Shown here in pieces: positions 1,136 through 47,356 of a stretch of 64,000 bases of DNA; position 1 is the stretch's first letter, and the number at the start of each line of letters is the position of its first letter. The position numbers were made by a program, and so were the translations under genes. The notes beneath the pieces were generated by a model. It ran no database searches. It saw only the letters and a list, made by a program, of their open reading frames with translations, and was not told where the DNA came from. The DNA comes from Thermodesulfobacteriota bacterium (GTDB taxonomy: Bacteria; Desulfobacterota_D; UBA1144; Nemesobacterales; JAJCZQ01), in contig CBDBDR010000017.1 in assembly GCA_965203965.1 (NCBI GenBank), positions 448,001 to 512,000 on the forward strand, written 5' to 3'.

Positions 1136-1819
1136 GTGCTGAAAGCAATTATATTTGATTTTGACGGTATTATAGCTGATACAGAACCGATCCATCTTGG
1201 GGCTTTTAAAAAGGTACTGAATAACATAAATATATCACTGACGGATGAAGATTATTACGAAAAATATCTCGCTTATGATGACAAAACATTGTTTACCGAG
1301 ATTTTAAGACACTCTAAAAGGGAACCTGATAATGTTCTAATACAGTCACTAATAAGGAAAAAAAATAGGATTGTGACCGAAATATTTAACGAGGAAATTG
1401 CTCTTTTCCCGGGATTTTTAAGCTATTTAAAAACAGTTAAAGACAAATACCTGATTGCCATAGGTTCAGGAGCATTAAAATCTGAAATTGTATTGGTTTT
1501 AAAAAAATTTGGCATAGAAGATGAAATTCACTCTATAACCGCAGCAGATGACGTTGTTATCTGTAAACCCAATCCTGAGGTGTTTCTCAAATCTCTAAAA
1601 TCGCTGAATAAAATCAATAATAGTAACAGTGACATTCTGCCCAAAGAATGCTTGGTGTTCGAGGATTCCGTTTCTGGTGTAAAAGCTGCAAAATTTGCAA
1701 ATATGAAATGTGTGGCAATTACCAATAGTTACAGCCGAGAAATGCTTTGTGAGGCAGACATTATCTCAAACAGTTTTGAAGAATTAGAGATGAAAAAAGT
1801 AGAAGCTCTTTTTGATTAA
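1136..1819 (+). CDS. HAD-family phosphatase (beta-PGM/CbbY-like)
   Basis: FDFDGIIADTE motif I, KPNPEVF, FEDS motif IV. Confidence 0.85.
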   Translation: MLKAIIFDFDGIIADTEPIHLGAFKKVLNNINISLTDEDYYEKYLAYDDKTLFTEILRHSKREPDNVLIQSLIRKKNRIVTEIFNEEIALFPGFLSYLKTVKDKYLIAIGSGALKSEIVLVLKKFGIEDEIHSITAADDVVICKPNPEVFLKSLKSLNKINNSNSDILPKECLVFEDSVSGVKAAKFANMKCVAITNSYSREMLCEADIISNSFEELEMKKVEALFD

Positions 1820-1914
1820 TTGTCACTCAGTAATTAGTATATTTGGTTTACATTGAAAAATACTTCTTTACAGATGATCTTAGTAATTACCAACAACAAA
1901 AACAGTAAATTGCT

Positions 1915-2490
1915 ATGAAAAGAGGTGTCTTATTTGTATTTTCAGGTCCTTCTGGAAGCGGAAAAACCACTCTGGCTAAACAGATAGTTGAACAGGTTGG
2001 TAATATGAATTTTGTAATATCCTACACCACACGACCCAAAAGAAAGGGAGAGTTGAACGGTAAAGATTATTTTTTTATTAATATTCAGAAGTTTAAAAAT
2101 ATGATAGAAAACAATGAATTTGCAGAGTGGGCTGAAGTGTTTGGAAATTATTACGGTACACCAATGGAAACCGTGAAAACCCTTTTGAACGAAGGAAAGG
2201 ATGTTTTGCTTGAAATAGACGTCAAAGGTGCAAGACAAATCAGGGAAAAATTCAGTGATTCAATACACGTTTTCATACTTGCTCCGACCATAAAAGAACT
2301 GGGTCAGAGGCTTGTGAAAAGAAAAACCGACAGCAGTGATGAAATAAAAAGCAGATTAAACTTAGCAGATAAAGAGATGGCAGAGGCTAAAGGCTATGAT
2401 TATACTATTATAAATGATGAATTAAAACAATCTCTGGTGAAAATAGAAAAAATTATAAAAATAGAAAAAACAAATAATAATTTCTTATAG
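1915..2490 (+). CDS. gmk: Guanylate kinase
   Basis: GPSGSGKTT P-loop, SYTTRPKRKGE, YYGT, LEIDVKGA. Confidence 0.95.
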   Translation: MKRGVLFVFSGPSGSGKTTLAKQIVEQVGNMNFVISYTTRPKRKGELNGKDYFFINIQKFKNMIENNEFAEWAEVFGNYYGTPMETVKTLLNEGKDVLLEIDVKGARQIREKFSDSIHVFILAPTIKELGQRLVKRKTDSSDEIKSRLNLADKEMAEAKGYDYTIINDELKQSLVKIEKIIKIEKTNNNFL

Positions 2491-2529
2491 ATACAATACA
2501 TATATAGAAATTACTTTAAGGTTATTGTT

Positions 2530-4725
2530 ATGATAAGATTGAATGATATAATAGATAAAGTTGCATCATACCGTGATCTTTCAAAGAGTGATAAGGATCT
2601 AATCAATCGGGCTTATGTCTATTCTGCCAAAGTGCATGCAGGTCAGAAAAGAGCATCCGGTCAGCCTTATCTGAGTCACCCACTAGAGGTTTCTTCAATT
2701 TTAGCAGAGATAAAACTTGATGTTGCAACAATTGCGACAGGGTTGCTTCACGACACGGTAGAGGACACACTTACCACACTTGATGAAATTGAAGAACTCT
2801 TTGGTAGAGACATAGCATTTCTTGTTGATGGTACAACCAAGATCAGCAAATTGCATTACATTTCAAATCTTAAGACTCAGGGAGAAAATTTTAGGAAACT
2901 TTTTCTTGCAACGGCGCAGGATATAAGGGTTGTTCTGATAAAACTTGCCGACCGTCTGCATAACATGAGAACTCTCAAATACTTGAATAAAGACAAGATA
3001 AAAAGCATTTCAGAAGAAACAATTAATGTCTATGCCCCTCTTGCGCACCGGCTTGGTATGAATTGGATTCACATAGAACTTGAAGATCTAGCATTCGCAC
3101 ATTCCAACCCACGAGATTACAAAAAGGTACATAACCTTGTATCCAGCAAGAAAAAAGAGTGGAAAAACTACCTCAAAGAGGTTAAAACCACTCTCACAGA
3201 AAAACTGAACGAAGTCGGAATCAAAGCAGAGGTGACAGGTAGATTCAAACATAATTATGGGATATATACAAAGATGAAGATGCAAGGTCTAGATATAGAC
3301 AAGGTTTACGACATACTCGCTTTCAGAATTATTACGGATAGTAAAAATGAGTGCTATCAAGCACTGGGAATTATACACGGTCTCTGGAGCCCCGTTCCGG
3401 GTAAATTCAAAGACTATATAGCACTGCAAAAAGCCAACGGATATCAGGCATTACACACCACAGTTCTGGATCCATTAAAAGAGCGGATGGAGATTCAAAT
3501 TAAAACCAAGGACATGCATAAATACGCAGAATATGGAGTTGCTTCACACTGGAACTACAAGGAAAACATGGGTGCAAATACCAGTCAGAAAATGTATGAC
3601 TCGCTTAGAAAGCTTTTGGAGCATAAAGATATAGAGGATTCAACTGAATTTATGGAGGCTATTCAAGGTGAACTCGCATCACAGATACTTTACGTTTTTA
3701 CCCCGAATGGTGACATTATTGAACTTCCGCAAGGTGCGACACCGATGGATTTTGCCTATGCAATTCATGCCGAAATTGGTCATCATTGTTACCGAGCACT
3801 GGTAAACCGTGGACTTGTTGCCTTGAACCGGAAATTAAAAACAGGTGATACGGTGGAGATCATCACCCATAAAGACAAACATCCAAGCAGGGATTGGCTC
3901 TCGTTTGTTGTAACTTCCAAAGCTAGAACGAGAATAAGATCATGGTTGAGAAAAGAGGAAAACGAGGTATCTGAAGAAAGCGGACGAAACATCACTCAAA
4001 GGAAATTAAAAAAGCACGGAATACAGTTGGGTGAGATAGAAAAAGACAAAAAACTTTTAGATTCATTAAAGACTTTGAATTTAAGAGGTGTAGGCACTTT
4101 GAATTTAGATAGCATAGAGGAATTCTACAGAGCTGTGGGTTTTGGGAGAATTTCCGCCAGTGAAATAATAAACCTCATGTCCCCAGGAACCGATATTATG
4201 TCTCAGGGTAAAAGAGACAGAATTAAGAGTATTATCAATAAGATAAGTAAAGATCGGCTCAAAAATGCCATAAAAATACAAGGTTTCAACAATATTATGG
4301 TCAGACTTGCTGAATGTTGTCTGCCGCTTCCTGGAGAATTGATTTTGGGTTATACAACAAGAGGTAAAGGGGTGACAATCCACAAACACAACTGCTCTTA
4401 CCTGCTTGACGTAGACCCTGAAAGAAGGATAGACGTAGAGTGGGATAAAGACTTCGCTGGACAACTACTCGCAACAATTTTCGTTGTGTACTCAGATATT
4501 CCAAAAAAATTGCCAAAGTTAGAGAAAGTGATCTTAAAAAATGGTGCAAATATTATAAATGTAAAAACATTTAAATTTGATATTGAAAAGGTCAGGAGCA
4601 ATTTTGAAATATCAGTGGAAAATATAACGTGTTTGAACTCTATTATAGATTCTCTGCAAAAATTGAAGAGTGTGGTAGCCGTGGAAAGAATTTTTAAATC
4701 ACAAGTCAATTCCTGGCAGAAATAA
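2530..4725 (+). CDS. spoT: Bifunctional (p)ppGpp synthetase/hydrolase (long RSH)
   Basis: HD hydrolase LLHDTVED, KLADRLHNMRTL, NGYQALHT, TGS domain (VFTPNGD...DFAYAIH), CC and ACT regions. Confidence 0.93.
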   Translation: MIRLNDIIDKVASYRDLSKSDKDLINRAYVYSAKVHAGQKRASGQPYLSHPLEVSSILAEIKLDVATIATGLLHDTVEDTLTTLDEIEELFGRDIAFLVDGTTKISKLHYISNLKTQGENFRKLFLATAQDIRVVLIKLADRLHNMRTLKYLNKDKIKSISEETINVYAPLAHRLGMNWIHIELEDLAFAHSNPRDYKKVHNLVSSKKKEWKNYLKEVKTTLTEKLNEVGIKAEVTGRFKHNYGIYTKMKMQGLDIDKVYDILAFRIITDSKNECYQALGIIHGLWSPVPGKFKDYIALQKANGYQALHTTVLDPLKERMEIQIKTKDMHKYAEYGVASHWNYKENMGANTSQKMYDSLRKLLEHKDIEDSTEFMEAIQGELASQILYVFTPNGDIIELPQGATPMDFAYAIHAEIGHHCYRALVNRGLVALNRKLKTGDTVEIITHKDKHPSRDWLSFVVTSKARTRIRSWLRKEENEVSEESGRNITQRKLKKHGIQLGEIEKDKKLLDSLKTLNLRGVGTLNLDSIEEFYRAVGFGRISASEIINLMSPGTDIMSQGKRDRIKSIINKISKDRLKNAIKIQGFNNIMVRLAECCLPLPGELILGYTTRGKGVTIHKHNCSYLLDVDPERRIDVEWDKDFAGQLLATIFVVYSDIPKKLPKLEKVILKNGANIINVKTFKFDIEKVRSNFEISVENITCLNSIIDSLQKLKSVVAVERIFKSQVNSWQK

Positions 4726-14880: not shown

Positions 14881-14983
14881 ATTTAAACATCTACTCTTAT
14901 TTGCAACTGCTAACTCACTGTATTTATTGCATTTTTTGCTATATTTCCATTTAAGACAAATGCGTTGCGCTTAAAGAGGGGAA

Positions 14984-14995
14984 TTGACAAATAGC
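14984..14995 (+). repeat. 12-bp direct repeat TTGACAAATAGC (left copy)
   Basis: Identical to 15975-15986; abuts the stop codon of ORF 14995-15363. Confidence 0.75.
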
Positions 14996-15363
14996 TATCT
15001 GTCTGCAAATAACCCCTTGATAATAACCATAGACAGTGCAATCACGTTAATAGTAGTTGCTGCCAACAAGGTTATGAGGACAGTGTTGGAATAAAGGGCT
15101 ATGGAGTAGAAGAAATTGGACGCTCCAACAAATATTAACACCACTGCTATAAAAATAAGCCAACTGGAAACTATCCGCCTTGCCCAAGTTGCAAACTTTC
15201 CTCGCAACTCCTGCTTTTGCTTTTCCGCATTGATCTGGAGGTTTTGCAAGCGATCTTGCAGTATGGTTTGCTCATCAGGCGAGTCTTTACTCGGTTGTTT
15301 CTGAGCCTTTTCAAGTGTTTCAGGAAATCCTGTTCTTTGTTCCCCGCTCTTGCACATACCCAA
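14995..15363 (-). CDS. Two-TM membrane protein, putative toxin partner of the Panacea antitoxin
   Basis: Starts immediately after the Panacea stop; coiled N-terminus plus two hydrophobic helices; toxin role is inferred from context. Confidence 0.6.
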   Translation of the reverse strand: MGMCKSGEQRTGFPETLEKAQKQPSKDSPDEQTILQDRLQNLQINAEKQKQELRGKFATWARRIVSSWLIFIAVVLIFVGASNFFYSIALYSNTVLITLLAATTINVIALSMVIIKGLFADR

Positions 15364-15870
15364 TCAATTCAAACTGTCATACAGATCTGTATAATATTTC
15401 CGAATGAGATTTTTTGGTATTTCTTTGCTAGGAGTGTTATCAAAGGTGTCCCACCACGGAGTGCCTTTTTTGTGTGTTAGGTCAATCAGATGTTCAGCCG
15501 GAGCGTGTTTATACGCATTCCAAATGGTTTTCAAAATTCCAAGCACTTCTTTGTCAGTAATATCTTCTTCCGTTGGTTTTTTGGGCTCTTCGTTACCAAA
15601 CGGATCATACAAAGTCGCACGACGATCTTTTATAGGGCCTTTGCCATATTCCCGAAGCTCATAATAAAGCGAAGGAACCACCGGACCATATCTCCAAGCC
15701 TCTATGCGATCAGTAAACAGATCGGCATTCTTAGCTACACTGAACCAACCGAAAAAGATGTAGACCAATTTGAGAAGTTTCAAAATACTTACGTCTGTAA
15801 CATTGTCCTTCTCTGCATTGTCCAAAATAAAGTTAGCTATGTGTGCTGCTTTGTATGTGCTTTGCTGCAC
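15364..15870 (-). CDS. Panacea-domain (DUF4065/SocA/GepA-like) antitoxin
   Basis: IANFIL, LKLLKLVY, LFTDRIEAWRYGPVVPSLY, LIDLTHKKGTPW; AGGAGG RBS before the GTG start. Confidence 0.9.
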   Translation of the reverse strand: MQQSTYKAAHIANFILDNAEKDNVTDVSILKLLKLVYIFFGWFSVAKNADLFTDRIEAWRYGPVVPSLYYELREYGKGPIKDRRATLYDPFGNEEPKKPTEEDITDKEVLGILKTIWNAYKHAPAEHLIDLTHKKGTPWWDTFDNTPSKEIPKNLIRKYYTDLYDSLN

Positions 15871-15908
15871 AGGACACCTCCTGTCGTTTTTTTGGAGTAA
15901 TGTTTTAA

Positions 15909-15938
15909 ACTATAACACTATACCAACCAACTTGACAA
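15909..15938 (-). promoter_or_regulatory. Putative promoter of the Panacea operon
   Basis: Minus strand TTGTCA-N18-TATAGT with an extended -10 TGn. Confidence 0.45.
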
Positions 15939-15974
15939 CTACTATTGGTCAGGATCCCTGTCAGGGCAGAGTGG

Positions 15975-16003
15975 TTGACAAATAGCACTACACGTGCTAT
16001 ATA
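15975..16003 (+). promoter_or_regulatory. Sigma70 promoter of ncRNA-1 with a palindromic operator; includes the right 12-bp direct repeat
   Basis: TTGACA-N17-TATATA with TGn; perfect ATAGCAC-N5-GTGCTAT palindrome at 15982-16000. Confidence 0.7.
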
Positions 16004-16008
16004 AACAG

Positions 16009-16146
16009 TTAAGAGCATGTGGCAAATTCTCCATGCGAAACGCTGAGGATATTCCTGATATCCAAAGGTTAGCCACAGGATGGTCAGAAAGGGTTGTTGG
16101 AGTCCTTAAGCATGTTCAAGGGAGCGTCAGGGGTTCCCTTTTTTTT
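16009..16146 (+). ncRNA. Unnamed structured ncRNA-1, convergent with the MuF-PBECR gene
   Basis: Own promoter and terminator; helices covary with the paralog at 18095-18232; loop UCCUG is complementary to loop CAGGA. Confidence 0.75.
16118..16146 (+). terminator. Intrinsic terminator of ncRNA-1, overlapping the MuF stop codon
   Basis: AAGGGAGC-GTCAGGG-GTTCCCTT followed by a T tract. Confidence 0.8.
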
Positions 16147-17347
16147 GTAGCTTTTCTTGTGCCAGAAGTTCTTTCACTTGAGACGTTCTTATCCGATGGA
16201 TGGTTGTCAAAAAGATTTCGTCAGTCCCCTCTACAGATTTCACGATCGCTCTTAAAAACTTTTTTGGCTGGTATTCCTGTATGAAGTGCGACTCTACTCC
16301 TTTTGTTGCAACAATCGCTTGTGAGTTATCTATGATCTTCTGCGTATCGGCGTAGTTTGCGATCTTGATATTTGAATGCTTGTCAAGATGACCTACAAGC
16401 GTTTCCTGAGATAGAAGCACTGTATGCCCGTTAGTTTTAAGGGCTTTGGAGACCTCTGCGGGGACGACCCCAACTGGAAAGAACTCTTCGCTTTTTTTGT
16501 TCACCCATATTTTAAATTGATCTCCAGACAACATATCCTGCGTAAAATCACGAGCGATACGTGGCGTGAAATTGTTTAAGTTTGGCAACCAAGACCGTTT
16601 GCCCGGATTAAAGCCAAAGCTGGCGTGTGGCAACACTACTTTGCCAGTGGGAAGGCGGTATCCGGTAAGGTTTACGCTCTTTGGGTTGTTGACAGTGCCA
16701 ATTTCAACCTTGCTTCTCACCAGCTTGCCTTTTGAACTGCTAACCTCCCATTCTCTGCTGGTTATCTGTTGTTGGGTCAACGTCCGTTTGTTGCAACGGC
16801 AGTTGTAATCCAGCGGTGGAGTAAAAGTGTTCCAGAATGGATCATCAACCGGAAATATACTGCCGTCAAGCTCAGCGTGGCTTTCCCGAGTGCGGGAATC
16901 ATGCAGTGCGATAAATTGAGCAAAAGGACGGCGCTTTTTATTTTTCTCAATAGACGCTTCCCTGCCCGCAGCATAGGCAGATAGTAGGTTTGTGCGATAG
17001 ATAGTTTTTAAGCGGTGCGGGGGGAACTTCTGAGGAATTACCTCTCCTGTTTTTTTGTTTATTTTTTCTGCACCTTTCCAGCCTCCCTTTTGTAGCTTTG
17101 GTTCAAGTTCTTTTTTGAACTGCTGAAAAGTCTTGCCATCGGTCAAAGCCCCGTCAAGTGCCGTTTTTATATCTTTTAAAAGGTCTATTTTTGCGACATT
17201 TGCAACGGTGAAAACGTGTGCATGAGCTTCGCCAAGCACCTCACGCCAACCACGCGAGACCTTGTATTGCCTTGATCTTAGGTAATTGACTGCCTGCTCG
17301 GGCGTCCTTCTAAACATAAAGTTCAGGTTAATTGTTTTCGGGGGCAT
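16127..17347 (-). CDS. Phage Mu gpF (MuF) head morphogenesis protein with a C-terminal PBECR2-like putative RNase/toxin domain
   Basis: MuF motifs RLKTIYRTNLLSAYAAGR, DSRTRESHAELDG, DDPFWNTFTPPLDYNCRC, FGFNPG; C-terminal FPVGVV...LLSQETL...H..KH...Y...AIVK...EIFLTTIHR (PBECR2 assignment by eye). Confidence 0.85.
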   Translation of the reverse strand: MPPKTINLNFMFRRTPEQAVNYLRSRQYKVSRGWREVLGEAHAHVFTVANVAKIDLLKDIKTALDGALTDGKTFQQFKKELEPKLQKGGWKGAEKINKKTGEVIPQKFPPHRLKTIYRTNLLSAYAAGREASIEKNKKRRPFAQFIALHDSRTRESHAELDGSIFPVDDPFWNTFTPPLDYNCRCNKRTLTQQQITSREWEVSSSKGKLVRSKVEIGTVNNPKSVNLTGYRLPTGKVVLPHASFGFNPGKRSWLPNLNNFTPRIARDFTQDMLSGDQFKIWVNKKSEEFFPVGVVPAEVSKALKTNGHTVLLSQETLVGHLDKHSNIKIANYADTQKIIDNSQAIVATKGVESHFIQEYQPKKFLRAIVKSVEGTDEIFLTTIHRIRTSQVKELLAQEKLQKKGNP

Positions 17348-17573
17348 TGCTTATCTCTCCCCATAGGCGGGCTATTACCCATTTGTTTTCAAGGCTTTTT
17401 TAAGAGGAATTCAAACGGGGAAACGACCCTTGTTAAACACCGATTAAACCCTATTTAAAGTGTCAATAATTCCACCAAAAGATCTCTTTAATCCGAACTT
17501 CTCCGGGATTCATAGTGTGAACTTATATACTGTTTGCAGTTGATTATTTCTTTGTTCTAATTACGCAATTTGC

Positions 17574-17666
17574 AAAAAGCTCATCAACCCAAAAACGGGC
17601 GAGATAACAAAGTTTGCACCGCACTGCCTAAAAACTATTTATCATACAAATCTACTATCTGCCTAA
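17574..17666 (+). pseudogene. Remnant of the N-terminal MuF region of the second paralog
   Basis: Translates to KKLINPKTGEITKFAPHCLKTIYHTNLLSA*, matching EKINKKTGEVIPQKFPPHRLKTIYRTNLLSAY in the intact copy. Confidence 0.8.
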
Positions 17667-17667
17667 C

Positions 17668-18096
17668 TTGAATTTTTACGAACCTGTCAGCGCCCGCCAC
17701 TATGTGCAGGAGCTGGTCAATAGTAAGGTTTTTACGCGCTGGATGAGTAAAAAAAGTCAAGAGTTCTTTCCCGTTGGAATTGTCCCCGCAGGGGTCTCAA
17801 AAGCCCTTAACACCAATGGGCATAAGTTGCTTTTGTCTCAGGAGACCTTGATCACCCACCTTAAAAAACACTCAGATATTAAACTTGCAAACTATGCTGC
17901 TATGCAGAAGATCATAGATAATTCGCAGGCAGTGTTAAGAGGGCGAGAAGTGCATTTTATACAGCAAGATCAACCCGGAAAGTTCTTAAGGGCAGTTGTA
18001 AAAGCTGTAGATGATTCGGATGAGATTTTTTTAAATACAATCCACAGAATGCGGGCATCTCAAGCAGAGGAATTTCTATCACAAGAAAAACTATAA
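17668..18096 (+). CDS. Orphan PBECR2-like domain, paralog of the MuF C-terminus (internally deleted gene; expression uncertain)
   Basis: About 64% identical (87/136, manual count) to residues 265-400 of 16127-17347; TTG start with no clear RBS. Confidence 0.75.
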   Translation: MNFYEPVSARHYVQELVNSKVFTRWMSKKSQEFFPVGIVPAGVSKALNTNGHKLLLSQETLITHLKKHSDIKLANYAAMQKIIDNSQAVLRGREVHFIQQDQPGKFLRAVVKAVDDSDEIFLNTIHRMRASQAEEFLSQEKL

Positions 18097-18232
18097 AAAA
18101 AGGGAGCCCCTGACGCTCCCTTGTGTGTGCGAGGGGGACTCGGGTAACTCCCCTACAGAACTTTTTTGGGCATCAGGCATGCCCTCAGCAATCGCGCCGA
18201 GCAGTTTTTGCCGCAACACACTTAAAATGCTT
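18095..18232 (-). ncRNA. Unnamed structured ncRNA-2, convergent with the orphan PBECR gene
   Basis: Same architecture as ncRNA-1 with compensatory substitutions; ends in AAGGGAGC-GTCAGGG-GCTCCCTT plus a T tract. Confidence 0.75.
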
Positions 18233-18238
18233 TTCATA

Positions 18239-18267
18239 TTTATAATAAAAATATAGTATTGTGTCAA
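18239..18267 (-). promoter_or_regulatory. Sigma70 promoter of ncRNA-2
   Basis: Minus strand TTGACA-N17-TATAAA, in an equivalent position to the ncRNA-1 promoter. Confidence 0.7.
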
Positions 18268-18319
18268 TCAAACGTTTATGTTTAATGATTTAGTTTACAT
18301 AATTTCAAGGAGAAAAAAT

Positions 18320-18778
18320 ATGTCCGAAAAATTAAAAGTAGGGGACACTGTACCTGATTTTGAGGCTGAAACTTACGGTGGTGAAGTAGTAAAGTTGAGT
18401 GATTATTACAAGGAGAAAATTGTAGCTCTTTACTTTTATCCTAAAGACAATACTCCCGGATGCACAAAAGAAGCCTGCTCTATAAGGGATGGAATGGATG
18501 AGCTTTCAGAGCTGGGAATTCAAGTTGTTGGAGTAAGCACAGACGGTGTGAAATCACATGAAAATTTTAGGAAAAAATACAATTTGAATTTTCCTCTGGT
18601 GAGCGATAAAAGCAAAACTATTATAAATATGTATGGTGTAAAAAGTGCGTTTGGGTCAGCAAAAAGACAAACATTCCTGATAGACGGCAAAGGCATAATA
18701 CAACACATTTGGAACAAGGTTAAGACGGCTCAACATGCAGATGAAATCGCAGATAAGGTCAGGGAGTTGAATCTTTAG
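18320..18778 (+). CDS. bcp: Peroxiredoxin Bcp/PrxQ
   Basis: YFYPKDNTPGCTKEAC, RQTFLID; AAGGAG RBS before ATG 18320. Confidence 0.9.
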   Translation: MSEKLKVGDTVPDFEAETYGGEVVKLSDYYKEKIVALYFYPKDNTPGCTKEACSIRDGMDELSELGIQVVGVSTDGVKSHENFRKKYNLNFPLVSDKSKTIINMYGVKSAFGSAKRQTFLIDGKGIIQHIWNKVKTAQHADEIADKVRELNL

Positions 18779-18799
18779 AATAATTGCCATAGTGTTGTT

Positions 18800-19540
18800 G
18801 TGATAAACATTCCAAAAAAGATATTTATTACTGGAACTGATACCGGAGTTGGAAAAACGGTGGTTACGGCTGCAATTTCCAGTTGTTTAATAAAAAAGGG
18901 TTTAAGTGTCAATCCCTTAAAACCTTTTCAGACCGGTACAGAAGACCCAGTTGTTCACGATATAGAGTTCATACATAAAGTAATTGGTAAAACCTTTGAT
19001 ATTAACAAGGCATGTCCCTTTAGATTAAAAAAGCCCCTTTCACCTTATTACGCTTCCAAACTGGAAAAGGTTGATTACAGCATCCCTGATATTATAGAAA
19101 TACTGAAAGGTCGAATATCTGAAACCAGTATAAATCTGATAGAAGGTGCAGGTGGACTTAGGGTACCGATAACAAAGAGTTATTTTATGAGTGACTTGGC
19201 AAAGGATCTGGGCTCAACCCTGGTAATTGTTGCAAGGCCAGGGCTTGGGACAATTAACCATACTCTTTTGACTATTGATCATGCAAGATCTCACGGTTTA
19301 AAAATCATGGGAGTTGTAATATCCAATTATCCGACAAAACCAAATCTGGCTGACCTTACCAATATTTCTCAATTAAGAGAATTACTTGGTGTTGAAATAC
19401 TTGGGGTCATACCATCACTGGACAACGTGGTTGTGGAAGAAGGAGAAATAGGAGAATTGAATGAAAAAAGTCAAAACTTTTTCACAAATCAACTTGGTGG
19501 CAATCTTAATATAGAAAGTATGATCAACCTTACAAGATAA
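18800..19540 (+). CDS. bioD: Dethiobiotin synthase
   Basis: FITGTDTGVGKT, KPFQTG, IEGAGG, LGTINHTLL. Confidence 0.94.
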   Translation: MINIPKKIFITGTDTGVGKTVVTAAISSCLIKKGLSVNPLKPFQTGTEDPVVHDIEFIHKVIGKTFDINKACPFRLKKPLSPYYASKLEKVDYSIPDIIEILKGRISETSINLIEGAGGLRVPITKSYFMSDLAKDLGSTLVIVARPGLGTINHTLLTIDHARSHGLKIMGVVISNYPTKPNLADLTNISQLRELLGVEILGVIPSLDNVVVEEGEIGELNEKSQNFFTNQLGGNLNIESMINLTR

Positions 19541-19661
19541 GACCCTGATACACTTGACAGACAACTACAACGTGATATAAGTAATTGCTATTTTTCAGGA
19601 GCAGCACTGTGATTTCCAAAAAGTTCGTTCTGGAAATTTATTACATAAAGATCAGGTCAAT

Positions 19662-20231
19662 ATGAGCTACTTTATAAAACTTACCCCAGTTATTATGTTG
19701 TGTATCTTGATCTCGTTAGGCATATATCAGCATAAGGCGAAAAGCGGTAACAAAGGTCCCTCTCAACCTGTCCTGTTCAGCCATAAGATACATGCAGGGG
19801 AGAATGAAATACCATGTGAGTATTGCCACAGTTTTGTAGATGTATCACCTAACCCGGGTATTCCTTCACTTCAGAAATGTATTGGATGTCACCAGCACGT
19901 GCTCGGAAGAGATGAGGATTATGTAACCAATGAGGGACAGGTAATCAACTATAAGGATGAAATTGCCAAAGTCAGGGAGTATTGGGAAAGAAAAGAGCCT
20001 ATACCGTGGATAAAAGTCACAAGTATGGGTGAATACGTAAGGTTCAATCATAAGAGACATATTAAAAGGGGTTTTGAATGCCAGACGTGTCATGGACAGG
20101 TGCAAGAAATGGACGTCGTTTATAAGGCTGAGAGACTTAACATGGGTTTTTGTATAAGCTGTCATGAAAAAAATGCTGATAATGAAGATCACTTAAAAGT
20201 TTTGAAAGATTGTCTGACCTGCCATTATTAA
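19662..20231 (+). CDS. actA: Alternative complex III pentaheme cytochrome c subunit
   Basis: Five CxxCH motifs, QPVLFSHKIHAG, N-terminal TM; first gene of the act cluster. Confidence 0.88.
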   Translation: MSYFIKLTPVIMLCILISLGIYQHKAKSGNKGPSQPVLFSHKIHAGENEIPCEYCHSFVDVSPNPGIPSLQKCIGCHQHVLGRDEDYVTNEGQVINYKDEIAKVREYWERKEPIPWIKVTSMGEYVRFNHKRHIKRGFECQTCHGQVQEMDVVYKAERLNMGFCISCHEKNADNEDHLKVLKDCLTCHY

Positions 20232-20247
20232 ATGGTTGGAGGTATAA

Positions 20248-23181
20248 ATGTCTGAAAAGAAAAAGGGTGAATTAAGCAGAAGAGATTTTTTAAAGGTAGT
20301 TGGCGTTGCCAGTGGCACAGCAGCTGTTACTGGTGCATGTTCAAATGAGCCTGTTGAACAGATAATACCTTATGTCATACCTCCAGAATCTTATATACCT
20401 GCGTTACCTAAATTCTATGCCTCTACATGCCGTGAGTGTCCATCAGGATGCGGAGTAATTGTAAAAAACAGAGATGGAAGGGCTATAAAAATTGAAGGCA
20501 ACCCCTTGACTCCAAATAATGGAGGGACTTGTGCAATGGGGCAGGCATCTCTGCAAGGTCTCTACAACCCTGACCGCGTAAGATCTCCGCTTGGCAAAAA
20601 GAAAAACAGAAAACAGCTTGTCCCCATCGGTTGGAGTGAAGGCATTGACGAATTGTCTAAAAAAATAAATGAACTCGTCAAAAAAGGTAAGGGAGACAGA
20701 ATAGTTTATCTAAGCAATAATATCGCTGGCACATTAAATGGCCTTGTTGAAAATTGGACAAAAGCTATAGGGGGTCGTCATTACACCTATGAGTCATTTT
20801 CTTATGACCCAATCAAAGAGGCTAACAGGATTTGCTTCGGTATTGATGAAATACCAACCTACAAAATAGAGAAAGCTAAATACGTCCTTTCCTTTGGTGC
20901 TGATTTTCTTGAAACATGGTTGTCACCAGTACGTTTTGCCAAAGGTTTTTCCAAACTCAAAACATATAAAAACGGTCGTATTGGCAAATTGGTTCAAATA
21001 GAACCAAGAGCTTCTGTTACGGCAGCAAGTGCAGATTCTTGGATTGCTGTTAAGCCTGGAACCGAAGTTTTTCTCGCTCTAGGAATTGCAAATGTAATAG
21101 TAGAAAAAGGATTGAATAAAACAAATGCCTCGTTTGTGGGAGAATTGCTATCAAAATACAACCCTGAGACAGTTTCCAAAATAACAGATATTTCAGTGGA
21201 AGTTATCAATCAGATCGCACAGGAATTCAGCAAGAGCAGAAGCATTGCACTTGGTGGAGGAGTAGCAGTTAGCGGAACCAATGCAACTGAAACAATGGTT
21301 GCCGTAAATATATTAAATTACCTTGTTGGCAATATTGGCCGCACCGTTGATTTTTCAAATACATTATCTATTTCCAGTGTCAGCACGTTTAAGGATATTA
21401 CAAAACTATTTGAAGATATGAATAGCGGTAAAGTTGAACTTCTTATAGTTCAAGGAGCTAATCCAGCTTTTACGCTACCAAAGTCGCTAAACGCAACTCA
21501 GGCTTTGAGTAAAGTTAATTATCTGGTCAGTTTGTCCCCATTTGTAGATGAAACAACCGAGATGGCTTCTCTCGTTCTTCCAGACAATCACCCAGTTGAA
21601 AGTTGGGGAGATTTCCAATCAAGTAAATCTTTCCGGGGGATAATCCAGCCTGCAATGAGTCCTGTCTTCAATACAAGATCAGTCGGGGATGTAATTATAG
21701 AGTTAAGTAAAAAAGTGGATTCTACAAAAAACCTCTTTTCTGAATCAACATACTATGATCATTTAAGAGCTTCATGGAAAAAAATTGCTTATGACAAAAC
21801 ATCTGCAAAAAGTTTTGAGTTGTTTTGGAAAGATGCACTTAAAAAAGGTGGAATTGAATTAAATACACCTGCAAGAAAAGTTTCAATGTCGTCACGCGTA
21901 AAGACATTAGAAATTTCTGAACCTTTTATGCAGGGTGACGGTGAATTTTATTTTATTACCTATCCTTCCTACAGGTATTATGACGGTTCAGGTGCTAATA
22001 AACCTTGGCTGCAAGAATTGCCAGAAGCACTTTCAACCTCCGTATGGGATTCCTACGTTGAGATACATCCCAATACGGCAAAAAAACTTGGTGTAAGGGA
22101 AGGTTCATACCTGAATATCAAATCACCCGATGGTGAATTCAAAATCCAGTCCTTTGTTTATGAAGGAATACGTCCCGATACAATAGCAATACCTATGGGT
22201 CAGGGACATACGAGCTATGGTAGGTATGCCAAGGGAAGGGGAGTAAATCCTCTGGACTTGCTGCCAAACGTTAAAGATAAAATATCAGGAGGTTTTGCTT
22301 TTCTTTCAACAAAGGCGTCAGTTTCAAATGCTGGCAAGCACGATCTGCTCGTAAGGACACAATATACAAAAACACAACATGACAGGAGCGTTGCAAAAGA
22401 CCTGACTATAAATGAACTAAAACATGGTGTCCATGATGAACATCACGAAGAGGTTGATTTTTACCCTCATAGGAAATATCCAAAATATAGATGGGCAATG
22501 AACATTGATCTCAATAAATGTACTGGCTGCGGAGCTTGTGTAACCGCTTGCTATGCAGAAAACAACATTCCGTTTGTAGGAAAAGAACAGGTGGCAAAAC
22601 GCCGCGACATGGCTTGGATAAGGATTGAAAGGTATTTTGAAAAAAATCAGAACAACAATCTGGATATCAGATTTTTGCCGATGCTTTGCCAACAATGTGG
22701 CAACGCTCCCTGTGAACCTGTCTGTCCAGTTTACGCAACGTATCACAACCCCGAAGGTTTGAATGGTATGGTATACAACAGGTGCGTTGGAACGAGATAC
22801 TGTGCAAATAACTGTACCTATAAGGTCAGAAAATTTAATTGGTATAGCTACAAGTTTCCTGAACCACTAAACTGGCAGTTGAATCCAGATGTAACAGTGA
22901 GAACCAAGGGTGTTATGGAAAAATGCACTTTTTGCGTGCAGAGAATTAAATTTGGAGAAGATATTGCTAAGGATGGAGACGGGATAGTTAGAGATGGGGA
23001 TATTCTTACCGCGTGTCAGCAGGCTTGTCCTACTGATGCCATTGTGTTCGGCAATCTCAAGGATAAATCCAGCAAGGTTTCAAAACTTGCAAAGGATAAA
23101 AGAGGATACAGAGTTTTTGAAGCTATTAATACAAAACCCGGCATAACCTATCTAAAGAAAATAAAATGGGATAAAGCATAA
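20248..23181 (+). CDS. actB: ACIII ActB: Tat-exported molybdopterin-oxidoreductase-like domain fused to an Fe-S domain
   Basis: SRRDFLK Tat motif; C-terminal CTGCGACVTAC, CQQCGNAPCEPVCP, RCVGTRYCANNC, EKCTFC, CQQACP. Confidence 0.9.
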   Translation: MSEKKKGELSRRDFLKVVGVASGTAAVTGACSNEPVEQIIPYVIPPESYIPALPKFYASTCRECPSGCGVIVKNRDGRAIKIEGNPLTPNNGGTCAMGQASLQGLYNPDRVRSPLGKKKNRKQLVPIGWSEGIDELSKKINELVKKGKGDRIVYLSNNIAGTLNGLVENWTKAIGGRHYTYESFSYDPIKEANRICFGIDEIPTYKIEKAKYVLSFGADFLETWLSPVRFAKGFSKLKTYKNGRIGKLVQIEPRASVTAASADSWIAVKPGTEVFLALGIANVIVEKGLNKTNASFVGELLSKYNPETVSKITDISVEVINQIAQEFSKSRSIALGGGVAVSGTNATETMVAVNILNYLVGNIGRTVDFSNTLSISSVSTFKDITKLFEDMNSGKVELLIVQGANPAFTLPKSLNATQALSKVNYLVSLSPFVDETTEMASLVLPDNHPVESWGDFQSSKSFRGIIQPAMSPVFNTRSVGDVIIELSKKVDSTKNLFSESTYYDHLRASWKKIAYDKTSAKSFELFWKDALKKGGIELNTPARKVSMSSRVKTLEISEPFMQGDGEFYFITYPSYRYYDGSGANKPWLQELPEALSTSVWDSYVEIHPNTAKKLGVREGSYLNIKSPDGEFKIQSFVYEGIRPDTIAIPMGQGHTSYGRYAKGRGVNPLDLLPNVKDKISGGFAFLSTKASVSNAGKHDLLVRTQYTKTQHDRSVAKDLTINELKHGVHDEHHEEVDFYPHRKYPKYRWAMNIDLNKCTGCGACVTACYAENNIPFVGKEQVAKRRDMAWIRIERYFEKNQNNNLDIRFLPMLCQQCGNAPCEPVCPVYATYHNPEGLNGMVYNRCVGTRYCANNCTYKVRKFNWYSYKFPEPLNWQLNPDVTVRTKGVMEKCTFCVQRIKFGEDIAKDGDGIVRDGDILTACQQACPTDAIVFGNLKDKSSKVSKLAKDKRGYRVFEAINTKPGITYLKKIKWDKA

Positions 23182-47282: not shown

Positions 47283-47356
47283 CGTCCCCGAGAGGATTCG
47301 AACCTCCGACCCCAAGATTAGGAATCTTGTGCTCTATCCTGCTGAGCTACGGGGAC
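47283..47356 (-). tRNA. tRNA-Arg(CCT)
   Basis: GTCCCCG acceptor stem, CAAGA-TTCCTAA-TCTTG anticodon arm, GGTTCGAATCC; CCA not encoded. Confidence 0.95.

What the first reader, a model, noticed from the sequence alone, without database searches (positions are those of the whole stretch)
16009..16146. ncRNA-1: multi-helix fold with a perfect 5-bp kissing-loop complement
Seen: P1 16013-16020/16110-16117 encloses P2 16029-16033/16098-16102, a GCG-AAA-CGC mini-hairpin, hairpin P4 16047-16063 (loop UCCUG) and hairpin P5 16072-16084 (loop CAGGA). The two loops are exact complements. G-U pairs in P1, P5 and the terminator would be A-C mismatches on the other strand, which fixes the plus strand as the functional one. 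Inference: a compact tertiary fold (aptamer-, ribozyme- or tRNA-mimic-like) rather than a simple antisense RNA, since only ~20 nt overlap the ORF.
Basis: partly seen in the sequence, partly recalled or inferred. Interest (0 to 1): 0.8.

Follow-up and report, generated by a model that had tools for sequence, protein, structure and literature searches.

The report
New structured RNA beside phage MuF genes
The flagged stretch is a real, separately transcribed small RNA of about 135 bases from a previously uncatalogued family that sits tail-to-tail with the RNase-like end of phage "MuF" head-protein genes, which suggests an RNA partner, possibly an RNA antidote, for that protein domain.

Summary
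The RNA has its own promoter (15975-16003) and terminator (16118-16146). It belongs to an RNA family with no Rfam 15 match.

Family size: 48 copies in 25 of 120 genomes of this phylum, 12 of them in this genome. One is a mirror copy at 18096-18225(-).

Comparative analysis supports P1, P2, the mini-hairpin, P4 and the terminator. It adds a helix, P6, whose loop holds the 3' strand of P2, which makes a pseudoknot.

The proposed P4-P5 kissing loop is not conserved. P5 is a subtype insert, and only 2 copies have the complementary loop. The P4 loop is instead complementary to the terminator loop in 33 of 48 copies, with some compensatory changes.

Context is the main result. In this phylum, 19 of 20 MuF C-terminal (PBECR3/RelE-fold) coding matches have such an RNA at their 3' end, nearly always convergent. 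A second subfamily occupies the same place in 17 of 20 viral contigs.

Best guess (about 0.4): a trans-acting RNA that binds, and probably neutralises, the MuF C-domain. Orphan copies persist in defence islands. The function is inferred, not shown.

The parts
15975..16003 (+). Promoter of RNA-1: TTGACA, 17 nt, TATATA, with TG two bases before the -10 box
   Evidence: Read. The simple scan skipped it because the last -10 base is A. A TTGAC-type -35 box recurs upstream of most of the 48 copies. 31/48 pass a strict -10 test and 25/48 pass both boxes.
16009..16146 (+). RNA-1 (subtype A), about 135-138 nt, the finding itself
   Evidence: CM R1 156.3 bits. CM R2 111.2 bits. No Rfam match at E<=10.
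16013..16020 (+). P1 5' strand, pairs with 16110-16117
   Evidence: 7 of 8 pairs change on both sides and 95.1% of cells pair.
16110..16117 (+). P1 3' strand
16029..16033 (+). P2 5' strand (CUCCA), pairs with 16098-16102 (UGGAG) inside the P6 loop, forming a pseudoknot
   Evidence: At least 10 different complementary strand pairs across copies. Own-partner mean run 4.88 against 3.99 for swapped partners, 0/5000.
16035..16043 (+). P3 mini-hairpin GCG-AAA-CGC
   Evidence: Hairpin kept with different sequences in homologues. The 2 modelled pairs are 95.7% paired.
16047..16063 (+). P4 hairpin. Loop and closing bases UUCCUGA (16052-16058) are complementary to the terminator loop
   Evidence: 6 of 6 pairs change on both sides. 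Loop core CCUG is conserved.
16072..16084 (+). P5 hairpin (loop CAGGA), a subtype-specific insert
   Evidence: 25-27 of 36 sequences have gaps at these columns. The CAGGA loop occurs only here and at C17:1176095; the C13 paralogue has GAGA.
16089..16107 (+). Its loop carries the P2 3' strand
   Evidence: 4 of 4 pairs change on both sides and 99.3% of cells pair.
16118..16146 (+). Intrinsic terminator. Loop GUCAGGG (16126-16132) is complementary to the P4 loop
   Evidence: 8 of 8 stem pairs change on both sides. Loop complementarity tested.
16127..17347 (-). MuF (gp30-like) gene, 406 aa. The C-terminal PBECR3/RelE-fold domain is encoded at about 16130-16579. Its last codons overlap the RNA-1 terminator
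   Evidence: Pfam Phage_Mu_F E 7.2e-25 and PBECR3 E 0.0096. Family link by jackhmmer. AF2 pLDDT 88.2. Foldseek top hits are BrnT and HigB2.
17668..18096 (+). 142-aa remnant of a second MuF gene (C-domain only), convergent with RNA-2
   Evidence: PBECR3 E 0.019. 63% identical to residues 253-390 of the 406-aa protein. 17740-18123 is an inverted 73% copy of 16117-16507.
18096..18225 (-). RNA-2 (subtype B), a second family member and mirror partner of RNA-1
   Evidence: CM R1 80.8 bits. CM R2 105 bits.

Best explanation
Shown: 16009-16146(+) is an independently transcribed, structured small-RNA gene. It has P1, P3, P4, a P2/P6-loop pseudoknot, a terminator hairpin whose loop matches the P4 loop, and a subtype-specific P5. 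It belongs to an uncatalogued family that is genetically tied to the 3' end of MuF (phage Mu gp30-like) genes, whose C-terminal domain has the RelE/BECR (PBECR3) RNase fold.

Inferred: the RNA acts in trans as the partner of that domain. Most likely it binds and neutralises it, as an RNA 'immunity' factor in the slot where MuF toxins normally carry a small immunity ORF. Prophages would express it from a constitutive sigma-70-type promoter. After the prophage decays, the RNA would be kept as an orphan, often in defence islands, where it could blunt the MuF protein injected by related incoming phages. The conserved unpaired stretches and the pseudoknot core would form the protein-binding surface. 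The P4-terminator loop contact would lock the fold or link two molecules.
For: RNA reality:
- Covariation is strong.
- Promoter-like boxes recur upstream and a terminator follows.
- Contigs from RNA libraries cover 16021-16295 and 16048-16260 with 0 differences. This is weak support, because DNA can be present in such libraries.

Linkage in this phylum:
- All 5 Pfam PBECR3 matches, in 3 of 120 genomes, lie next to an RNA copy.
- With a profile of 14 C-domains, there are 20 matches in 12 of 120 genomes. 18 abut a CM-detected RNA. 1 (G010) abuts a divergent RNA that keeps P1/P2/P6. 1 is a 96-aa fragment with no RNA.
- 22 of 48 RNA copies have such an ORF ending within 400 nt of the RNA 3' end. 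21 are convergent. 13 overlap the RNA end by exactly 3-4 nt.

Linkage outside the phylum: a second subfamily lies convergent to a MuF C-domain ORF in 17 of 20 viral contigs.

No protein gene sits between MuF and the RNA.

Cassette behaviour: the N-terminal part of the window MuF gene is 92% identical to C17:1419029-1419827. The C-domain and the RNA subtype differ between the two loci (with RNA places).

Decay series: full MuF plus RNA, then truncated C-domain plus RNA, then RNA alone.

Orphan copies lie beside Type ISP and Type I restriction genes, HEPN-MNT, HicA, PIN-Phd, a DncV-like gene and a CRISPR array.

Literature, passages read:
- Iyer et al. 2017 (PMC5512222) predict RNA binding or RNase activity for the MuF C-domain.
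- Jamet et al. 2017 (PMC5576092) report a small ORF after 89.4% of MuF toxin genes.
Against: - No binding, cleavage or toxicity was tested.
- 26 of 48 copies have no MuF C-domain neighbour, so the RNA works, or at least persists, without it.
- Physical adjacency alone would produce co-inheritance of RNA and C-domain.
- The presumed catalytic His is replaced by Gly in 8 of 37 aligned C-domains. 7 of those 8 still have the RNA, so the RNA does not track a catalytically intact domain.
- MuF is a late lytic protein, and a dying cell may need no antidote.
- The convergent orientation differs from every known toxin-antitoxin layout.
- Foldseek support for the RNase fold is weak by E-value (best 0.011).
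- The Pfam PBECR3 score of the window protein is below the cut-off (16.3 against 30 bits).
Confidence: 0.4

Rival explanations
1. Cis-acting antisense or insulator element. The RNA gene with its bidirectional terminator ends MuF transcription. By convergent transcription or 3'-end antisense pairing it keeps the late MuF gene silent in lysogens. The structure mainly stabilises the RNA.
For: 21 of 22 linked copies are convergent, and 13 have a fixed 3-4-nt overlap. Subfamily 2 has no terminator of its own, so its transcript would run antisense into MuF. Its promoter lies at the start of the next late gene.
Against: 26 of 48 copies have no MuF neighbour yet keep promoter, fold and terminator. One linked copy is co-oriented (L019). 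The overlap is only the terminator. About 35 conserved unpaired bases, a pseudoknot and loop-loop covariation are more than an insulator needs.
Confidence: 0.15
2. Ordinary trans-acting regulatory sRNA, carried by prophages and islands. It base-pairs with host or phage mRNAs through its conserved loops (CCUG, CAGG, CUCC).
For: It has its own promoter and terminator, a size of about 125-140 nt, conserved exposed loops and multiple paralogues.
Against: The conserved loop sequences pair with each other within the RNA. The near-complete linkage to one protein domain is not expected for a general regulator. No target search was done.
Confidence: 0.15
3. Ribonucleoprotein cofactor. The RNA is bound by the MuF C-domain as a working part of the phage particle or of DNA delivery.
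For: Two complementary loops covary. The gene lies in the head-morphogenesis module next to a portal-associated protein. Iyer 2017 predicts RNA binding for the inactive Mu C-domain.
Against: Phage Mu itself has no gap between gp30 and G. Two MuF relatives, L063 and L064, have no gap and no RNA. Orphan copies outside prophages have no use under this model. Subfamily 2 lacks P4 and the terminator loop. No match to the phi29 pRNA family in Rfam.
Confidence: 0.12
4. One reading: a compact fold locked by a P4-P5 kissing loop, acting as aptamer, ribozyme or tRNA mimic.
For: The 5-nt loops are exact complements in the window copy. The family has many conserved unpaired bases, as ribozymes and aptamers do. 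New self-cleaving ribozymes are often found near phage genes (recalled).
Against: P5 is absent from most copies. The complementary loop occurs in 2 copies only. No match to any known ribozyme or riboswitch family. Catalysis is untested.
Confidence: 0.06
5. A DNA-level element (integron attC-like site, miniature transposon or recombination site) rather than an RNA.
For: It is multi-copy, flanks variable cassettes, and occurs as inverted copies around a 2-kb segment. An alternative haplotype of the same locus exists on contig C13. A metatranscriptome contig joins 16207 to 18035 on opposite strands.
Against: There is no integron integrase: the best match scores 87 bits against a cut-off of 265, and the same search rings below cut-off in all 14 control genomes. 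Promoter and terminator are conserved. The fold is branched with a pseudoknot, and G-U exceeds A-C. Copies in one genome are divergent subtypes, not near-identical repeats.
Confidence: 0.04

Closest known systems
MuF polymorphic toxin and immunity modules of temperate phages (Jamet et al. 2017, PMC5576092; passages read)
   Same: An N-terminal MuF domain carries a swappable C-terminal effector domain, and a small genetic element lies immediately after the gene. The N-part is conserved and the C-part is exchanged.
   Different: The downstream element here is a convergent structured RNA gene, not a small protein ORF. Toxicity and protection are untested.
MuF-C / PBECR domains of polyvalent phage proteins (Iyer et al. 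2017, PMC5512222; passages read)
   Same: Same architecture: MuF plus a C-terminal BECR-fold domain, predicted to be an RNase or RNA binder.
   Different: The passages I read describe no RNA partner. Phage Mu itself has gp30 and G overlapping, with no room for an RNA.
Type III toxin-antitoxin systems (ToxIN-type; features recalled, not from a call)
   Same: An RNA genetically coupled to an endoRNase-type protein, linked to phage conflict. The proposed mode is RNA binding the protein.
   Different: There are no tandem repeats. The layout is convergent, not upstream and co-oriented. The protein has a RelE/BECR-like fold fused to MuF. The RNA is one large pseudoknotted fold.
phi29 packaging RNA (features recalled)
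   Same: A phage head-module RNA of about 120 nt with two mutually complementary loops.
   Different: No Rfam match. The phage type is different. Orphan chromosomal copies exist. It is unknown whether the loop pairing is within or between molecules.

Membership tests
Any Rfam 15 family | Covariance-model score at or above the gathering score, or any match at a lenient E-value | tested here: not met
   Window at gathering threshold: only a tRNA at 47283-47356. 15800-16400 at E<=10: 0 matches. 13 other member loci at E<=1: only tRNA, CRISPR-DR16 and a tymovirus-like match, none on the RNA. 7 subfamily-2 loci: 0 matches.
Type III toxin-antitoxin (ToxIN-like) | Antitoxin is a tandem array of short RNA repeats | tested here: not met
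   TRF on 15800-18400 finds only a 14-nt repeat at 18275-18305, outside the RNA.
Type III toxin-antitoxin (ToxIN-like) | RNA gene upstream of and co-oriented with the toxin gene | tested here: not met
   21 of 22 linked copies are convergent. The one co-oriented copy lies downstream of the gene.
Type III toxin-antitoxin (ToxIN-like) | RNA binds and inhibits the endoRNase | not testable with these tools
   Needs binding and toxicity assays.
Type I toxin-antitoxin | Small hydrophobic toxin whose mRNA is extensively paired by the antisense RNA | tested here: not met
   The partner ORF is a 406-aa MuF protein. The overlap is about 20 nt here and 3-4 nt plus the stop codon in 13 other loci.
MuF polymorphic toxin module | N-terminal MuF domain | tested here: met
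   PF04233, E 7.2e-25, 88.4 bits against a cut-off of 29.6.
MuF polymorphic toxin module | Variable C-terminal domain on a conserved N-terminus | tested here: met
   16605-17400 is 92% identical to C17:1419029-1419827. No DNA match for 16127-16604 at that locus.
MuF polymorphic toxin module | Small immunity protein ORF immediately downstream | tested here: not met
   The RNA gene occupies the slot. The next protein gene is a Panacea-domain gene with its own promoter.
PBECR3 / BECR RNase domain (the neighbouring protein) | Pfam PF18812 at or above cut-off | tested here: inconclusive
   Window protein scores 16.3 bits against a cut-off of 30. Homologous C-domains reach 32.8 bits (L005) and 33.5 bits. 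All are linked by jackhmmer at E<=1e-29.
PBECR3 / BECR RNase domain (the neighbouring protein) | RelE/barnase-like fold with His and Ser/Thr active-site residues | tested here: inconclusive
   AF2 pLDDT 88.2. Foldseek has no hit at E<=0.001; the top hits are BrnT (E 0.011, prob 1.00) and HigB2. His is present in 29 of 37 aligned domains, and Ser/Thr in 39 of 39.
Integron attC site | Integron integrase in the genome and co-oriented cassette array | tested here: not met
   TIGR02249 best match 87 bits against a cut-off of 265, as in all 14 control genomes. Copies are convergent or dispersed.
phi29 pRNA | Match to the family model | tested here: not met
   No Rfam match of any kind.

The most novel reading that the evidence does not exclude
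The RNA is an RNA immunity factor or decoy for a BECR-fold phage effector. Prophages and hosts would express a pseudoknotted RNA that traps the C-terminal RNase-like domain of the MuF pilot protein, which enters the cell with phage DNA. This would give RNA-based superinfection exclusion, with RNA subtypes (A, B, C) matched to C-domain variants like toxin-immunity pairs. It would be the first RNA immunity partner of a polymorphic-toxin-type RNase, and the first ligand for the enigmatic MuF-C domain. A sub-variant: P4 imitates an anticodon stem-loop. Colicin-D-like enzymes cut such loops (recalled). The window loop reads UUCCUGA.
Probability: 0.3. Interest if true: 0.9.

Novelty: new variant of a known kind. 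Interest (0 to 1): 0.74.

Why it matters
The MuF (gp30) head protein is widespread in tailed phages. Its C-terminal BECR-like domain has no known ligand or role. A conserved structured RNA encoded tail-to-tail with that domain gives a concrete, testable candidate partner. The linkage is 19 of 20 genes in one phylum, and a second subfamily sits in the same place in 17 of 20 viral contigs.

If the RNA neutralises the domain, it widens the idea of toxin immunity and anti-phage defence to structured RNAs. It would also explain why orphan copies sit in defence islands.

Independently of function, this is a new RNA class with a pseudoknot and a covarying loop-loop contact, well suited to structural study.

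Tried and rejected
- **Exact-pattern scans for close relatives.** Genome contigs gave 1 hit, the G037 contig. Metagenome contigs gave 2 hits that share only the 20-mer and are chance. Viral contigs gave 0.
- **BLASTN against GenBank phages.** No match for either subfamily.
- **CM R2 on 5 viral MuF loci.** Nothing found, best 8.5 bits. Subfamily 2 was found by eye in L062, then by pattern. That pattern forces the 23-nt core to look invariant (ascertainment).
- **His versus RNA.** I tested whether the RNA accompanies only C-domains with the presumed catalytic His. It does not: 7 RNA-linked subfamily-2 ORFs have Gly there. Mu and L063/L064 lack both gap and RNA, but the sample is too small to use.
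- **Kissing-loop test with G-U allowed.** On 32 sequences it was not significant (1613/5000). It was significant only with Watson-Crick pairs on all 48 (0/5000), and 159/5000 with G-U allowed.
- **Sequences dropped.** 4 of 36 (L031, L033, L039, L041; truncated or aberrant) were dropped.
- **16S rRNA mimicry.** The genome's own 16S 3' end shares only a 7-8-nt word (CCGUAGG) with the RNA. This was not tested statistically and was set aside.
- **P5 as a CsrA-type GGA hairpin.** Recalled resemblance, not conserved, not pursued.
- **Read laying.** Parts of 14900-18400 without contig cover, including most of the MuF body, say nothing. Runs X3 and X4 mostly hold paralogues or variants.
- **Earlier notes of this scan.** Nothing at this place or with this sequence. 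The four notes on this genome concern other loci.
- **Text searches for a described RNA at Mu-like head genes.** 0 papers. 'Mu-gpT-DE' gave an unrelated methods paper. The BECR preprint listed could not be opened.

Full report
**1. The observation**

- P1, 16013-16020/16110-16117, 8 bp with two G-U pairs.
- P2, 16029-16033/16098-16102, CUCCA/UGGAG.
- The GCG-AAA-CGC mini-hairpin.
- P4, 16047-16063, loop UCCUG.
- P5, 16072-16084, loop CAGGA.
- A terminator, stem 16118-16140 followed by a U-run.

Upstream lies TTGACA (15975-15980), 17 nt, TATATA (15998-16003), with TG two bases before the -10 box. The simple scanner skipped it because its rule demands T at the last -10 position.

The single-sequence fold is unremarkable. 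The plus strand gives -41.6 kcal/mol with z = -1.89, and the minus strand gives -32.4 with z = -1.69. The case therefore rests on comparison.

**2. A family, not a singleton**

Rfam 15 has no match. This holds for the window at gathering threshold, for 15800-16400 at E<=10, for 13 other member loci at E<=1, and for 7 loci of the second subfamily.

The window's own genome (2.0 Mb, 17 contigs) holds paralogues at 81-83% identity. BLASTN found weak relatives in 2 other genomes of 60.

A covariance model built from 5 sequences found matches in 22 of 101 genomes of the order. A second model, built from 38 matches of which 36 are distinct, found the RNA in 25 of 120 genomes. Those 120 are all that are held for the class and the phylum. 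By family the counts are:
- f8: 18 of 37.
- f2: 6 of 33.
- The window's own family: none of the 4 other genomes.
- f7: 0 of 15.
- f9: 0 of 19.

In total 48 copies were collected. The own genome has 10 clear copies by nhmmer and 12 by CM. They fall into three subtypes:
- A: the finding itself, C13:2554-2687 and C17:1176095.
- B: window 18096-18225(-), among others.
- C: copies with a different insert.

**3. Structure**

On the 36 distinct sequences, 87.4% of helix cells form standard pairs against 69.4% in column shuffles (0/500). 30 of 32 pairs show changes on both sides. Sliding the partner by 1-3 columns drops pairing to 40-53%. The alignment was fitted to the model, which favours it, but the slid controls and the many pair types are convincing.

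That helix is P6, 16089-16092/16104-16107 (AAGG/CCUU; elsewhere GGGG/CCCC or GGAGG/CCUCC).

P2 was not in the model, so I tested it separately. The stretch after GGCAAAA was compared with the P6 loop of the same sequence and with the loops of other sequences. Own partners give a mean complementary run of 4.88 nt against 3.99 for swapped partners (0 of 5000 permutations; 32 of 36 sequences used, 4 aberrant ones dropped). At least ten different strand pairs occur, for example CUCCA/UGGAG, CUGCUU/AAGCAG, GCUCGG/CCGAGU, CUCGA/UCGAG and CUCCC/GGGAG. Because the 3' strand of P2 lies inside the P6 loop, P2 and P6 form a pseudoknot.

P5 is missing from most copies: 25-27 of 36 sequences have gaps there. 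Its CAGGA loop occurs only in the window copy and in C17:1176095. The C13 paralogue has GAGA, and subtype-C inserts carry other loops. The P4-P5 kiss is therefore not a family feature.

The P4 loop core CCUG faces CAGG in the terminator loop. The window pair is UUCCUGA with UCAGGGG. A Watson-Crick run of at least 5 nt is present in 33 of 48 copies, and in 39 of 48 if G-U is allowed. The variants are coordinated:
- CCUGA with UCAGG.
- CCUGG with CCAGG.
- CUUGG with CCAAG (L038).
- CCUAG with CUAGG (L031).

Exceptions exist (L020, L022, L040, L041). Own versus swapped partners gives 0/5000 with Watson-Crick pairs only, but 159/5000 with G-U allowed. An earlier test on 32 sequences was not significant. 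I rate this contact as likely, not proven. Whether it forms within one molecule or between two cannot be told.

Strand: G-U exceeds A-C, 64 to 44 in subfamily 1 and 34 to 4 in subfamily 2. The promoter and terminator also lie on the plus strand.

**4. Transcription**

A TTGAC-type -35 box at a fixed distance recurs upstream of most copies. 31 of 48 pass a strict -10 rule and 25 of 48 pass both boxes. Several others, including the window copy, fail only my last-base rule.

Contigs from metatranscriptome libraries hold 16021-16295 and 16048-16260 without a difference, and also hold paralogues. Such libraries can contain DNA, so this is a weak hint only.

**5. Context**

The RNA-1 terminator overlaps the last codons of a 406-aa ORF, 16127-17347(-). 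The ORF carries a Phage_Mu_F domain (E 7.2e-25) and a weak PBECR3 match in its C-terminus (E 0.0096).

RNA-2 is convergent with a 142-aa ORF, 17668-18096, which is also weakly PBECR3-like. That ORF is an internally deleted MuF remnant. The segment 17740-18123 is an inverted 73% copy of 16117-16507. The locus therefore reads: RNA-1, then MuF pointing towards it, then the MuF-C remnant pointing away, then RNA-2 pointing back.

In the whole phylum, Pfam PBECR3 rings 5 times in 3 of 120 genomes, each time beside an RNA copy.

A jackhmmer search from the window C-domain linked many more neighbours. A profile of 14 C-domains matched 20 places in 12 of 120 genomes:
- 18 abut a CM-detected RNA.
- The G010 match abuts a divergent RNA that keeps P1, P2 and P6 but lacks P4 and the terminator.
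- One 96-aa fragment has none.

Seen from the RNA side, 22 of 48 copies have such an ORF ending within 400 nt of the RNA 3' end. 21 are convergent and 1 is co-oriented. In 13, the ORF end overlaps the RNA end by exactly 3-4 nt. 2 of the 22 are the upstream member of a tandem RNA pair.

The G010-type RNA also lies after the MuF gene of viral contig L062. A 23-nt pattern from it found 20 viral contigs. In 17 of them a full-length MuF ORF with this C-domain ends at the RNA 3' end, convergent. In that subfamily P1, a variable hairpin and P6 covary: 14 of 20 predicted pairs have compensatory changes. CUCCC sits in a hairpin loop opposite GGGAG in the P6 loop, so the P2 equivalent is a true loop-loop kiss.

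Copies without a MuF neighbour lie at the edges of accessory gene clusters. These include Type ISP restriction enzymes (3 loci), hsdM, HEPN-MNT, HicA, PIN-Phd, a DncV-like gene, DUF4238, DUF6361, tRNA genes and a CRISPR array.

**6. The protein partner**

The modelled C-domain is confident (pLDDT 88.2, pTM 0.82). Foldseek gives no hit at E<=0.001, but the three best are the RelE-family RNase toxins BrnT (E 0.011, probability 1.00) and HigB-type toxins. A His is nearly invariant and a Gln is invariant in the 14-sequence alignment.

Iyer et al. 2017 (PMC5512222, passages read) state that Mu gp30 ends in a PBECR domain. They say it is inactive in Mu and probably binds RNA, while orthologues are likely active RNases. 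In Mu itself, gp30 and G overlap by 4 nt, which leaves no room for an RNA.

**7. Cassette behaviour**

The N-terminal two-thirds of the window MuF gene is 92% identical to the copy at C17:1419029-1419827. The C-domain has no DNA match there, and the adjacent RNA is subtype C rather than A.

Contig C13 is an alternative haplotype of this very locus. Its flanks are 99-100% identical to the window's. Between them it carries RNA-C with its C-domain, a remnant of the window-type C-domain end with RNA-A, and RNA-B.

Many partner ORFs are 5'-truncated MuF remnants, and some loci keep only 70-aa fragments or the RNA alone. The RNA is the part that survives.

**8. Mechanism**

I commit to a trans-acting RNA partner of the MuF C-domain, most likely an inhibitor, that is, an RNA in the immunity slot. 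Jamet et al. [quoted passage not shown] Here the RNA is the only element in that position.

Shown:
- The RNA family and its fold.
- The promoter and terminator signals.
- The near-complete linkage to the MuF C-domain.
- The joint exchange of C-domain and RNA.
- The orphan copies in defence-type neighbourhoods.

Inferred: binding, neutralisation and protection.

Against the model:
- Half of the copies have no partner ORF.
- The presumed catalytic His is Gly in 8 of 37 aligned domains, 7 of which still have the RNA.
- The convergent layout has no precedent among toxin-antitoxin systems.
- Adjacency alone explains co-inheritance.

Rivals are a cis antisense or terminator element, an ordinary base-pairing sRNA, a virion or cofactor RNA, a ribozyme, and a DNA-level element. 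For the last, no integron integrase is present.

**9. Comparison and novelty**

The RNA fails the defining features of type III antitoxins: there are no repeats and the order and orientation are wrong. It also fails those of type I systems and of attC sites, and it matches no Rfam family.

It resembles MuF toxin-immunity modules in logic but replaces the immunity protein with an RNA. I found no description in print. The searches were 'Mu-like' with 'antisense RNA', 'head morphogenesis' and 'structured RNA', 'RNA motif' with 'Mu-like', 'prophage' and 'covariation', and PBECR. One listed preprint on BECR RNases could not be opened, and supplements were not consulted.

**Verdict**

This is a real and new structured RNA class. 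The functional link to the MuF C-terminal domain is strong genetically and open biochemically.

Noticed in passing
G000 contig C13 (L055) compared with window 14995-21890: C13 (6.5 kb) is an alternative haplotype of this locus. Its flanks are 99.2-99.9% identical to window 14995-15919 and 18104-21890. The 1.8-kb middle carries a different set and order of RNA and MuF-C cassettes.
   Followed up: partly
window 14995-15870 (-): A Panacea/SocA-domain gene (168 aa, E 7e-19) is directly followed by a 122-aa predicted membrane protein. It has its own promoter-like site at 15938-15909. This looks like a separate PanA-type toxin-antitoxin pair next to the RNA.
   Followed up: no
window 16207 joined to 18035: One metatranscriptome contig (run X4, record 14) joins 16207-16295 to 18035-18089 on opposite strands. 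Two runs share the same unlike sequence after 16295. The natural population seems to carry rearranged or inverted versions of the cassette.
   Followed up: no
L023 (G039:C39) 1501-3106: Two convergent RNA copies bracket MuF-C-like reading frames, as in the window. A CRISPR array (6 DR16-type repeats) starts about 200 nt away.
   Followed up: partly
L026 1339-1412 and L030 1738-1809: tRNA genes lie within about 100 nt of RNA copies. In L026 the tRNA sits between the RNA and a virion-morphogenesis gene of a Mu-like prophage.
   Followed up: no
L018, L020, L021, L022, L025, L031, L033, L038, L039, L041 (upstream 50 nt of each RNA): The main copy in genus g10 shares a nearly identical 50-nt upstream sequence across species, so the conserved unit extends beyond the modelled RNA.
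   Followed up: no
L072 about 1700-1740: A second, partial copy of the subfamily-2 RNA core seems to follow the first in this viral contig.
   Followed up: no
window 47283-47356 (-): A tRNA gene, the only Rfam match in the window.
   Followed up: no
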